Source: Escherichia phage A7_1. Taken from it: a DNA stretch of 64,000 nucleotides. How positions within the stretch are numbered: the stretch's first letter is position 1; every line of letters begins with the position of its first letter. Below are positions 7,811 through 9,680 of this stretch, one piece after another. The notes beneath the pieces are model-generated. The model ran no database searches. It saw only the letters and a program-made list of their open reading frames with translations, and was not told the origin of the DNA. The stretch is from the sequence record OP795442; one strand, written 5' to 3'. Made by a program: the position numbers and the translations under genes.

Positions 7811-9680
7811 ATCCATCGGCGTGACTCCCCCAACTCTATTAATCCCTTCCCCATTTGGATCATCATATCTTACCCTATCTAATCATCAATCCAATCACCC
7901 TTTGGAATCTCTCTCCCAAAAATCTAAACTAATCTGATAGCTTACCACAACATAACACACAAAGAAAGAACTATTTTGCCCACAAAGAAAGGCAGTTTTA
8001 AAGAGATACCATTGCCAGAGTATGGAGGTGGCGCGACCGTAGGGAGCGACACTATAAAACGAGTATACCCCTCCTACCGCTATGCGGTCATCGGTGATAA
8101 CCGATATCGTTACACGCTATCTGTTCTCTTCGTTTCCTCGTTTTATAGTGTCTATCTGTAGTAATCTTTTATCCTTTGTCAACAGATTAATTGGCTTATA
8201 GACAATTATTTATAGTGATTTATTATGCATAGCTACTGATTATGTATGCAATAAGGATACAATAAGGATACAGTAGCGGTAGTGTAGCGACGCTGTAAAT
8301 ATCAACAAAGAGATGCCGTATTTGCCCACAGAATGAACAAGTAAGCAGGGCGGTACGCCCTTTTGCTAATGAGCGTAGCTCTTTTGCTAGGTAAAACTCT
8401 CTTCTCTCTTCTTTCCCAAAATAAATTTTTTCTTGCTTTTATTGCCAGAGTATGGCGGGGCGCTCAGGCTATTGATGGCCCTGATGGAGTCGCTCCTGTA
8501 CAGTTGGAATAGTTCACAGTTGGATAGTCACAAGTTGGTATTATTCTTCCCACTAGTTGGAACAGGCCAGAACTGGCAAGGCTTAGAGTCGCTCCACTTG
8601 TTGGACGGAAGAAGGGCGCTTGCAGTGCGTATAAGTTGTATTATGTTAAATGCAGATCGAAATCGGTATTCTAAATCAGATTCAGAAGTCAATAGAAATC
8701 TTTAACTTTATTGTTGGGGTAGCACAACATTTTTCTTGACAAGTCGAATCAAAGATGTATTGTGGATTGAAAATAAATGAAGATAATGCTTGACTTCTTG
8801 GATATTTTGAAAACATCGGACCCCCTCCCCCTCCCCCACGGTCGCCGTGCCTGGCAGCAGTGCCAACGCACTCAACAAAAAAGAGGCAAACATCCTGTTC
8901 TTATCGACGAAGACAACTGACCTCTACTGACGTGACTACAATTGGTGCGTCTCTTCAGGCCATCACCTTTGGGCACAGATATATTTGGGCAGGATAAATA
9001 ATGGACCCACCCCGTCATTAGTGACTCAAAATTTTGGCGGGAGGGTATAAAAACTAAAAAGTGGTCGTTTAAAATTTATGGCAGAGGTCCACTCAGGGTA
9101 GACATATACTAAAAATTCTAAACTACTGGAAATTATAAACTACAAGACGGGTGGATGTATAGGGAAGGGAGGTGACTCAGTGGGAAGTGGTATGTGGTAA
9201 GGGATTTATACACACGAGCCTCACTAGGCAAATGTGACTCTGTGGACAATAGGTATTACTCTGTGGACAATCGGAATAACATGAAGTAGGTCAGTCTCTT
9301 CAGAAAGTCTTGACCATTGTGGAAATATATGAAGTAATCCGTCAACCAAAATGGTTTACATTGTGGAAAGTAAACCAAAATGGTTTAGATGTGGGTAAAC
9401 AGATGTGACTCGACAGGCAAAGTGGTGTGTCTCAGTAGGCCAACAGTGGTTACTCTTTAGGCAAACTACCTGATTTTGGGATGAATCGATATTTGTGGGA
9501 ATCGTTGTACGATATTTGGGCATTATTGTAGGTGGAGTACAACAGTTTGGAAGGACTATATAGTTTGGTGAGCACAACATTTTTGGTACTGGTACAGTAT
9601 TTTTGGGGGAAGCATGGTGGCTTGGTTGCAATCCAGATGCAAAAAGCACCCACAATTGGGGTGCTCTCTGTAGTTCAGGA
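7811..9680. repeat. non-coding repeat-rich convergence zone
   Basis: No credible ORF; GTGACTC copies, palindromic 15-mer pair, ACTCTGTGGACAAT pair, TTGCCAGAGTATGG pair, C5TC5TC5 tract. Confidence 0.5.

What the first reader, a model, noticed from the sequence alone, without database searches (positions are those of the whole stretch)
7811..9680. 1.9-kb non-coding repeat-rich zone where the two transcription blocks converge
Between the last plus-strand terminator and the first minus-strand gene there is no convincing coding capacity but many short repeats: GTGACTC at least five times (8932, 9021, 9172, 9234, 9405), ATATTTGGGCA variants three times, TTGCCAGAGTATGG twice (8012, 8442), and strand-asymmetric pyrimidine tracts at 7800-7980 and 8395-8440. 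This is the kind of organisation expected for a replication origin, packaging site or array of protein-binding sites.
Basis: partly seen in the sequence, partly recalled or inferred. Interest (0 to 1): 0.6.

Follow-up and report, generated by a model that had tools for sequence, protein, structure and literature searches.

The report
Phage genome ends and packaging signals
This 1.9-kb gene-free stretch most likely holds the physical ends of the phage chromosome, a roughly 462-bp repeat that sits at both ends of the packaged DNA, plus conserved flanking signals that probably guide cutting and packaging; relatives are already known to have this, but it has not been described for this phage group.

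Summary

The window is a Septuagintavirus-type coliphage (subfamily Vequintavirinae, rV5-like). The gap matches rV5's published "non-coding" box between convergent transcription units.

In two related genera, read-based analysis places a short, non-permuted direct terminal repeat (DTR) in that gap: LL12 459 bp, KPP-1 514 bp. For this clade, the UPEC06 record carries an exact 462-bp duplication at both ends, which maps to window 8390-8851.

Three things support those boundaries:
- Conservation across six genomes steps up at about 8390 and down at about 8851.
- All boundaries in three genera carry TGYYA|RR on the strand reading into the repeat.
- The gap architecture is shared across genera.

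One flank holds a long hairpin (8048-8063 / 8137-8152) found in at least four lineages. Its stem covaries: 11 of 21 pairs show double changes, with no G-T pairs. The other flank holds same-strand motif arrays that recur in LL12 (CTCTTCAG, ATATTTnGGG) or are enriched here (CTC-N4-GGCAA).

Best reading: a T7-type concatemer junction and packaging site. An origin is neither shown nor excluded. Virion ends were not measured for this phage. This is a new member of a known kind, of moderate interest.

The parts
7786..7803 (+). Terminator hairpin ending the + strand block (GGGCCGC-TATT-GCGGCCC). A second copy at 7471-7489 brackets the small gene 7579-7776.
7811..7980 (+). C-rich, pyrimidine-rich tract with CACAAAGA repeats (7958, 7981). 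Moderately conserved.
8011..8028 (+). Copy 1 of the direct repeat ATTGCCAGAGTATGG(A/C)GG; contains a TGCCA|GA cut-site-like word. Invariant in six genomes.
8029..8052 (+). Core TGGCGCGACCGTAGGGAGCGACAC leading into the hairpin. An exact pattern match was found in 7 IMG/VR contigs of 83-147 kb; a diverged form is present in LL12.
8048..8152 (.). Long hairpin/cruciform element: 16-bp perfect arms 8048-8063 and 8137-8152 enclosing two small hairpins, 237 nt outside the repeat boundary.
   Evidence: DNA fold z = -3.1; 11 of 21 pairs with compensatory double changes across 8 sequences, 0 of 500 shuffles, no G-T pairs.
8180..8389 (.). Hypervariable, A+T-rich spacer with indels between relatives. Contains the terminator-like hairpin 8346-8360 and two TTTGCTA words (8363, 8383); the second is the cut-site word.
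8390..8851 (.). Predicted 462-bp direct terminal repeat, present once here because the record is not opened at the physical ends. Internal features: pyrimidine tract 8397-8440; repeat copy 2 at 8441-8458; AGTTGG x4 at 8502-8560; element 8625-8651 (TAAGTTGTATTATGTTAAATGCAGATC), also recognisable inside the LL12 repeat and, by eye, the KPP-1 repeat; sigma-70-like TTGACA-16-TATTGT at 8736-8763; (CCCCCT)n at 8821-8837.
8385..8391 (+). Left boundary word TGCTA|GG; the predicted cut lies between 8389 and 8390.
8850..8856 (-). Right boundary word TGCCA|GG on the - strand; the predicted cut lies between 8851 and 8852.
8852..9430 (+). Hypervariable array of same-strand short motifs: CTC-N4-G(G/A)(C/A)(A/C)A x7 (8951-9453), GTGACTC x4, CTCTTCAG x2 (8951, 9296), ATATTTGGGCA (8981). 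Copy number varies between relatives. G-rich on the + strand (skew +0.21 to +0.25).
9431..9620 (+). Conserved block of TTTGG/TGTGG-type repeats, including ATATTTGTGGG (9489), ATATTTGGGCA (9512) and the 30-nt family D1 (9520, 9555; a third copy at 8705 lies inside the repeat).
9640..9665 (-). Intrinsic terminator of the - strand block (AGCACCC / GGGTGCT stem followed by TTTTT on the - strand).
   Evidence: Read directly from the sequence; conserved.

Best explanation
The gap is the concatemer junction of a Vequintavirinae (Septuagintavirus-type) myophage. Window 8390-8851 is the roughly 462-bp direct terminal repeat that sits at both ends of the packaged linear chromosome. The conserved sequences on either side are cis-acting signals for cutting, repeat duplication and packaging.

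Shown or strongly supported: the position, length and boundaries of the repeat; the non-coding nature of the gap; the conserved hairpin; the oriented motif arrays.

Inferred mechanism: terminase or an associated nuclease nicks each strand after TGYYA at the two boundaries. These are staggered nicks 462 bp apart on opposite strands, leaving 5' overhangs. DNA polymerase fills them in, so each daughter genome gets a full repeat. This is the classical T7-type scheme (recalled from memory). The hairpin, 237 nt outside one boundary, would act as a structured DNA element in this processing, by analogy with the hairpin end seen on T7 concatemers. The same-strand motif arrays on the other side would be binding sites for the small terminase or another phage protein.
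For: 1. Identity and synteny. The window's closest relatives are A5-4, A73, W70, LTH01 and UPEC06, described as Septuagintavirus. The gap lies between convergent blocks, as does rV5's annotated 'non-coding' box between genes 163 and 164. The window runs in reverse orientation relative to LL12/rV5.

2. Experimental anchors in related genera. [quoted passage not shown] KPP-1: a 514-bp repeat from two-fold coverage plus PhageTerm. Several Vequintavirus records start or end exactly on the LL12 repeat, and two carry it in two places.

3. This clade. The UPEC06 record has an exact 462-bp duplication at both ends, mapping to window 8390-8851.

4. Independent support for these boundaries. In six genomes the invariant fraction jumps from 0.36 to 0.96 at about 8400 and falls from 0.92 to 0.16 at 8851. 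All six genomes keep TTGCTA|G(G/A) and TGCCA|GG at the boundaries. The LL12 and KPP-1 boundaries carry the same TGYYA|RR on the strand reading into the repeat.

5. Shared architecture. A long hairpin sits on the same side of the repeat in the three genera whose boundaries are anchored, and the same hairpin occurs in other contigs including one of 145,964 bp. Its stem covaries strongly. CTCTTCAG and ATATTTnGG motifs are enriched in the same flank and orientation in the window and in LL12, with single loose matches in KPP-1.

6. No coding capacity.
Against: No read data or virion DNA ends exist for this phage itself.

TGYYARR is short and not enriched in the gap (6 found, about 4 expected), so it cannot by itself define the cut site.

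The gap shows no significant overall DNA similarity to the LL12 gap; homology rests on position, short motifs and structure.

One Vequintavirus paper reports a PhageTerm call of headful packaging with partial permutation.

The roles assigned to the hairpin and the arrays are analogy only.
Confidence: 0.8

Rival explanations
1. Replication origin. The hairpin, the A+T-rich spacer and the repeated motifs would form an origin, where an initiator binds iterons and unwinding or priming occurs at the hairpin. This could apply instead of, or in addition to, the terminus function.
For: An A+T-rich stretch (31-35% GC at 8200-8300 and 8700-8800). A strongly structured element whose stem covaries with no G-T pairs, which fits a DNA-level structure. 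Four one-mismatch DnaA-box-like sites at 9206-9398. GC skew changes sign here. From memory: T7 has secondary origins near its ends, and the invariant GACAC/GTGTC stem base resembles T7-type primase recognition sites. rV5 encodes a gp4-like primase-helicase.
Against: The DnaA-like sites are part of the CTCTGTGGACAA repeat and are not DnaA-like in LL12. No initiator gene is adjacent. The rV5 authors found that skew switches track transcription direction. The arrays are hypervariable in copy number among close relatives. Nothing here measures replication.
Confidence: 0.15
2. Non-coding RNA locus. The conserved hairpin block (about 8011-8160) and/or the G-rich right flank are transcribed into regulatory RNAs, for example from the sigma-70-like promoter at 8736-8763.
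For: Covarying stem. A promoter-like site is conserved in six genomes. The strand composition of 8900-9620 resembles the sense strand of genes in this phage.
Against: No Rfam match at E of 1 or below except one noise hit outside the gap. No promoter or terminator frames the hairpin block. All compensatory changes are Watson-Crick to Watson-Crick, with no G-U intermediates. Promoter-like sites are not significantly in excess over shuffles (16 against 10.2 +/- 3.8). The right flank is hypervariable.
Confidence: 0.1
3. Assembly artefact or junk. The UPEC06 terminal duplication is an assembler overlap of a circularly permuted genome, and the gap is decaying 'wasteland' DNA without function.
For: The UPEC06 record is labelled a partial genome. 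Automated annotations place small ORFs here. One paper reports a headful call for a Vequintavirus.
Against: An arbitrary overlap would not coincide to the nucleotide with conservation steps, or with a boundary word shared with two PhageTerm-mapped genera. Parts of the gap are more conserved than neighbouring genes: invariant fraction 0.96-1.00 at 8001-8100. The hairpin covaries across lineages.
Confidence: 0.03

Closest known systems
Short direct terminal repeats of Vequintavirinae: Escherichia phage LL12 (459 bp, PMC6658697) and Klebsiella phage KPP-1 (514 bp, PMC9862379)
   Same: Same subfamily and the same syntenic non-coding gap between convergent transcription blocks. Similar repeat length (462 bp). 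The same TGYYA|RR word at both boundaries, a purine/pyrimidine tract at one repeat end, the same hairpin on the same side, and shared flank motifs.
   Different: No significant overall nucleotide similarity to the LL12 gap. Different genus (Septuagintavirus). The ends have not been measured for this clade, and the two papers describing it never use the words terminal repeat, termini, PhageTerm or DTR. The hairpin loop is shorter here (73 nt against 148-188 nt).
rV5 'non-coding' box between genes 163 and 164 (Kropinski et al. 2013, PMC3606486)
   Same: The same position between convergent units, 2.6 kb without ORFs, and a GC-skew switch there. The LL12 repeat maps inside it at rV5 104973-105431.
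   Different: In the passages my keyword search returned, the rV5 paper left the box unexplained and attributed the skew change to transcription orientation.
Bacteriophage T7/T3 concatemer junction: terminal repeat, flanking short-repeat arrays, and a hairpin processing intermediate (Chung, Nardone and Hinkle 1990, as cited in PMC4925675 and PMC4281155)
   Same: A short, exact, non-permuted repeat. Non-coding flanks with arrays of short oriented repeats. An inverted repeat close to one side of the repeat. KPP-1's PhageTerm class was reported as 'T7 type'.
   Different: Unrelated virus (a 140-kb myovirus against a 40-kb podovirus). No sequence similarity was tested or expected. No phage RNA polymerase promoters. 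Details of the T7 elements are recalled from memory, not checked here.
Phage T5 injection-stop region (non-coding, repeat-rich, with DnaA boxes, inside a 10-kb terminal repeat)
   Same: A large repeat-rich non-coding zone near a genome end with DnaA-box-like words. This was my first guess from composition.
   Different: The window is not T5-like. The repeat is 462 bp, not 10 kb. The DnaA-like words are not conserved. Rejected.

Membership tests
Short direct terminal repeat (T7-type, non-permuted) genome ends | The same exact sequence is present at both ends of virion DNA. | tested here: inconclusive
   Seen only in a relative's record: UPEC06 positions 1-462 equal 142679-143140 at 100% identity. 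The window holds one internal copy. Virion DNA of this phage cannot be examined.
Short direct terminal repeat (T7-type, non-permuted) genome ends | Two-fold read coverage over the repeat and sharp read-start pile-ups at its boundaries. | not testable with these tools
   No reads are available. Shown by others for LL12 and KPP-1.
Short direct terminal repeat (T7-type, non-permuted) genome ends | Positional and sequence correspondence with experimentally mapped repeats of relatives. | tested here: met
   Same convergent non-coding gap. 462 bp against 459 and 514 bp. TGYYA|RR at all boundaries in three genera and in all six clade genomes. A shared internal element, 8625-8651 against L008 2636-2662.
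Short direct terminal repeat (T7-type, non-permuted) genome ends | The repeat behaves as one conserved functional unit with discrete edges. | tested here: met
   Conservation steps at about 8390-8400 and 8851 in the six-genome alignment.
T7-like hairpin-mediated concatemer processing | An inverted repeat able to form a hairpin lies close to one side of the terminal repeat. | tested here: met
   A 16-21 bp perfect stem lies 211-308 nt from the repeat in three genera. It covaries.
T7-like hairpin-mediated concatemer processing | Hairpin-ended DNA intermediates appear during infection, and processing depends on them. | not testable with these tools
   Requires infected-cell DNA analysis.
Replication origin | Initiator-binding iterons or DnaA boxes next to an unwinding element, conserved among relatives. 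| tested here: inconclusive
   Oriented repeats and A+T-rich stretches exist. The DnaA-like sites are one-mismatch variants not conserved in LL12. No initiator was identified.
Replication origin | A copy-number (marker-frequency) peak, or autonomous replication. | not testable with these tools
   Experimental.
Known RNA families (Rfam 15) | A covariance-model match. | tested here: not met
   Only a Trp_leader hit at E = 0.51, at 7466-7551 and outside the gap.

The most novel reading that the evidence does not exclude
The gap preserves, across at least four Vequintavirinae lineages, a complete and compact processing module. It consists of two inverted TGYYA^RR nick sites that bound the terminal repeat, a covarying DNA hairpin with an invariant GACAC/GTGTC base about 200-300 bp outside one boundary, and oriented protein-binding arrays outside the other. 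If the hairpin and the symmetric nick sites work as inferred, these large myoviruses would offer a clean, sequence-defined system to test how terminal repeats are duplicated. The competing ideas are staggered nicks with fill-in and hairpin- or primase-primed synthesis. A 2026 review still describes this step as less well understood than cos or headful packaging. The same module might also serve as a replication start site.
Probability: 0.3. Interest if true: 0.55.

Novelty: new member of a known kind. Interest (0 to 1): 0.38.

Why it matters
Practical. Septuagintavirus records, including the one this window comes from, are not opened at the physical genome ends, and automated annotation fills the gap with spurious small ORFs. 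Placing the ends at 8390 and 8851 would allow correct genome orientation, an accurate genome length (unique sequence plus one extra repeat), and safer engineering of these therapy-candidate phages.

Mechanistic. The covarying hairpin, the symmetric boundary word and the oriented arrays are concrete, mutable elements. They could be used to study how phages with terminal repeats duplicate the repeat, a step that remains poorly understood.

Tried and rejected
- T5-like injection-stop region. This was my first guess from composition; the window is Vequintavirinae.
- Direct DNA homology to the LL12 gap. blastn with short words gave only one weak hit (E = 0.005) inside the repeats.
- Rfam scan. Nothing in the gap.
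- tRNA scan. None in the gap.
- DnaA boxes. One-mismatch sites cluster at 9206-9398 but belong to the CTCTGTGGACAA repeat and are not conserved in LL12.
- A loose pattern scan of IMG/VR (GGCGCGAC-N5-9-GCGACA) returned only unrelated hits and was wasted.
- Searches for further Septuagintavirus contigs whose ends might mark the termini found nothing in IMG/VR or in the metagenome contigs.
- The 'repeat_region' annotated in phage naswa is a 34-bp feature, not the terminal repeat.
- The flanking gene 9681-10079 is confined to this clade, so it could not be used to find the gap in other genera.
- Sigma-70 promoter-like sites are not significantly in excess, and the promoter inside the repeat is not conserved in LL12 or KPP-1 (by eye).

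Full report
**What is there**

The last + strand gene ends at 7776 and is followed by a GC-rich hairpin at 7786-7803. The first - strand gene is 9681-10079, and its intrinsic terminator (stem 9645-9651/9659-9665, T-run on the - strand) can be read directly from the sequence. The two blocks therefore converge on a 1.9-kb gap.

ORFs inside the gap reach 90 aa at most and have no Pfam or PHROG match. In five close relatives they are interrupted by stops and frameshifts. Their variable sites show no third-position excess (13/14/9, 8/8/12, 6/7/9), whereas the neighbouring real gene shows 16/13/40. The gap is non-coding.

- GTGACTC occurs 10 times in 64 kb. Five are in this interval, all on the + strand (7821, 9021, 9172, 9234, 9405).
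- TTGCCAGAGTATGG is exact at 8012 and 8442, with no shuffle reaching the count.
- ATATTTGGGCA is exact at 8981 and 9512, with a variant at 9489.
- The two pyrimidine tracts are as described.

**Whose genome this is**

The gap matches only five records: Escherichia phages A5-4, A73, W70, vB_EcoM-LTH01 and UPEC06. All are Vequintavirinae of 137-145 kb. The literature calls this clade Septuagintavirus. A keyword search of the two papers describing it found no mention of terminal repeats, termini, PhageTerm or DTR.

The - block of the window carries DNA ligase, an exonuclease, NrdA, NrdB and NrdD. In LL12 this gene set is on the + strand upstream of its own gap. The window therefore runs in reverse orientation relative to LL12/rV5.

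**What is known in relatives**

The rV5 paper draws a box labelled "non-coding" with no ORFs, between convergent units ending at genes 163 and 164, and notes a skew change at 104425-105475. A phage annotation guide cites rV5 for "wastelands with no apparent genes".

[quoted passage not shown] For KPP-1 (Mydovirus), two-fold coverage and PhageTerm gave a 514-bp direct terminal repeat (DTR), classed as T7 type.

The LL12 repeat is found in 120 records. Several start or end exactly on it: Pr121LW, bov10K2 and its sister records, and ECP2303. Two others, ECP2309 and YN3, begin on it and carry it in two places.

**The repeat in this clade**

The UPEC06 record carries an exact 462-bp duplication at its two ends (1-462 equals 142679-143140). 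It maps to window 8390-8851. Three independent observations argue that this is a real terminal repeat and not an assembler overlap.

First, in an alignment of six genomes the fraction of invariant columns is 0.34-0.38 over 8201-8400, 0.96 at 8401-8450 and 0.88-0.94 over 8651-8850. It collapses to 0.16 or less after 8851. The flanks are full of indels.

Second, the boundaries carry a word shared with the read-mapped repeats once orientation is taken into account. On the strand reading into the repeat:
- window: TTGCTA|GG and CTGCCA|GG
- LL12: CTGCCA|GG and GTGTCA|GA
- KPP-1: GTGCTA|GA and TTGCTA|AA

The consensus is TGYYA|RR. All six clade genomes keep it. The same end of the repeat also begins with a purine/pyrimidine tract in all three genera.

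Third, the repeat lengths agree: 462 bp against 459 and 514 bp. Within the clade the equivalent segment is 460-474 bp, except in A73 (567 bp, from an internal 105-bp re-duplication).

**The flanks**

On the window's left side there is a block that is 96-100% invariant in six genomes (8001-8100), more conserved than the adjacent genes. It contains the first copy of ATTGCCAGAGTATGG, the core TGGCGCGACCGTAGGGAGCGACAC, and a 16-bp perfect inverted repeat (8048-8063/8137-8152) enclosing two small hairpins.

LL12 and KPP-1 have an 18-bp and a 21-bp perfect inverted repeat on the same side of their repeats, 211 and 308 nt away (237 nt here). DNA-fold z-scores are -3.1, -9.2 and -9.0.

A specific pattern for the core found seven further IMG/VR contigs of 83-147 kb. 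One has the length I recall for Salmonella phage PVP-SE1; I did not verify its identity.

I aligned the stem arms of eight distinct sequences, replacing the variable loops with a short linker. The result:
- 92.9% of cells pair.
- 11 of 21 pairs show changes on both sides.
- 0 of 500 shuffles and none of the slid controls come close.
- There is not a single G-T/G-U pair.

The outer base GACA/TGTC never varies. Selection is therefore on base-pairing plus a fixed stem base. The absence of wobble pairs fits a DNA-level structure, or one needed on both strands, better than an RNA.

On the right side the sequence is G-rich on the + strand (skew +0.21 to +0.25, opposite to the adjacent - block). It is built from same-orientation short motifs:
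- CTC-N4-G(G/A)(C/A)(A/C)A occurs seven times between 8951 and 8951+510, none on the other strand.
- GTGACTC x4, CTCTTCAG x2, ATATTT(N0-2)GG x3.
- A conserved TTTGG/TGTGG block at 9431-9620.

The 8852-9430 part varies in copy number among close relatives, and W70 has an HNH endonuclease gene inserted there. The motif content is nevertheless shared across genera. In the equivalent LL12 flank, CTCTTCAG occurs four times against 0.08 expected and ATATTT(N0-2)GG twice, all in the same orientation. KPP-1 has one loose match of each in a shorter flank.

**How it most likely works**

The position, length and edges of the repeat are well supported. What follows is inference.

The two TGYYA|RR words lie on opposite strands, each just outside the repeat and reading into it. 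Nicks after the A on each strand would be 462 bp apart and would leave 5' overhangs. Filling them in would give each daughter genome a complete repeat. This is the classical scheme for T7-type ends (established knowledge, recalled from memory).

T7 concatemers also show a hairpin end thought to be a processing intermediate: Chung, Nardone and Hinkle 1990, as cited. summarises the competing strand-displacement and primase-initiated models. The covarying hairpin close to one boundary is the obvious candidate for an equivalent role.

The invariant GACAC/GTGTC stem base, and LL12's run of five GTGTC words next to its boundary, resemble T7-type primase recognition sites. rV5-like phages encode a gp4-like primase-helicase. 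This resemblance is recalled from memory and untested.

The oriented arrays and the two ATTGCCAGAGTATGG copies (one beside the hairpin, one 51 nt inside the repeat) are candidate terminase or accessory-protein binding sites. TGYYARR alone is not enriched in the gap (6 found, about 4 expected), so additional determinants must define the cut.

**Rivals**

An origin of replication cannot be excluded and could coexist with the terminus function, but nothing specific supports it. The DnaA-like words are one-mismatch variants embedded in a repeat and are not DnaA-like in LL12. The skew switch follows transcription direction.

A non-coding RNA is possible for the hairpin block. However, there is no Rfam match, no framing promoter or terminator, and no wobble pairs.

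An assembly artefact is contradicted by the conservation steps and the cross-genus boundary word.

One paper reports a headful call for a Vequintavirus from PhageTerm. This conflicts with LL12, KPP-1 and the record ends, and I give it little weight.

**Limits**

- No reads or virion DNA of this phage were available.
- The clade's boundaries rest on one relative's record, whose announcement I could not read.
- The hairpin arms were located by searching for inverted repeats. The pairing percentage is therefore partly by construction, although the cross-sequence compensatory changes are not.
- The motif definitions are post hoc.

**Verdict**

The finding is real and functional. Its core, a short terminal repeat in the convergent non-coding gap, is already established for the subfamily. 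It is new only for this genus: a new member of a known kind. The conserved hairpin, the symmetric boundary word and the oriented arrays are details I did not find described in the papers I could search. They give the region moderate interest.

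Noticed in passing
window 7471-7805: The 65-aa gene 7579-7776 sits between two copies of the same terminator hairpin (7471-7489 and 7787-7805). It is absent from LTH01 and UPEC06, where only one hairpin remains. It looks like a small insertion or deletion cassette bounded by duplicated terminators.
   Followed up: partly
L002 (W70) 4249-4731; equivalent to window ~8866-9046: W70 carries a 160-aa HNH_3 endonuclease gene (E = 5e-13) inserted just outside the predicted terminal-repeat boundary, in the hypervariable flank.
   Followed up: yes
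L006 (A73), insertion at window 8456: A73 has a 105-bp insertion inside the repeat. It re-duplicates the roughly 50-nt segment ending in ATTGCCAGAGTATGGCGGGG, so A73 carries an extra (second) copy of that direct repeat inside its terminal repeat, and the repeat-equivalent segment is 567 bp.
   Followed up: partly
L134-L140 (IMG/VR contigs) and L131, L008: The core TGGCGCGANCGTAGNGAGCGACA and the hairpin that follows it occur in contigs of 83-147 kb from several Vequintavirinae-like lineages. KPP-1's boundary sequences are conserved in L134, L138, L139 and L140 and partly in L137 (right boundary only); they were not found in L135 or L136.
   Followed up: partly
window 8346-8369: A terminator-like hairpin (AGGGCG-GTA-CGCCCT followed by TTTTGCTA on the + strand) lies about 25 nt before the predicted repeat boundary. 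It is conserved in five of six genomes.
   Followed up: no
window 9206-9398: Four one-mismatch DnaA-box-like words (TTATACACA, TTGTCCACA x2, TTACCCACA) fall within 200 bp. Three of them lie within TGTGG-type repeat words (two in the CTCTGTGGACAA repeat); not DnaA-like in LL12.
   Followed up: partly
window 8625-8651; L008 2636-2662: A short element inside the repeat (GTATTATGTTAAAT core) is recognisable in the repeats of all three genera at a similar relative position. Its function is unknown, and it is not a convincing promoter on either strand.
   Followed up: partly
window 13743-16125: Two adjacent ORFs of about 410 aa on the - strand carry RCC1-like repeat domains, which is unusual cargo for a coliphage.
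   Followed up: no
window 61421-63124: A cluster of five tRNA genes (Met, Tyr, Gly, Gln, Pro) sits on the + strand, just past the divergent switch at about 59 kb.
   Followed up: no
L132 (naswa) 1928-1961: The 'repeat_region' annotated inside the Vequintavirus terminal repeat in some Danish wastewater phage records is only 34 bp and does not mark the terminal repeat itself.
   Followed up: yes
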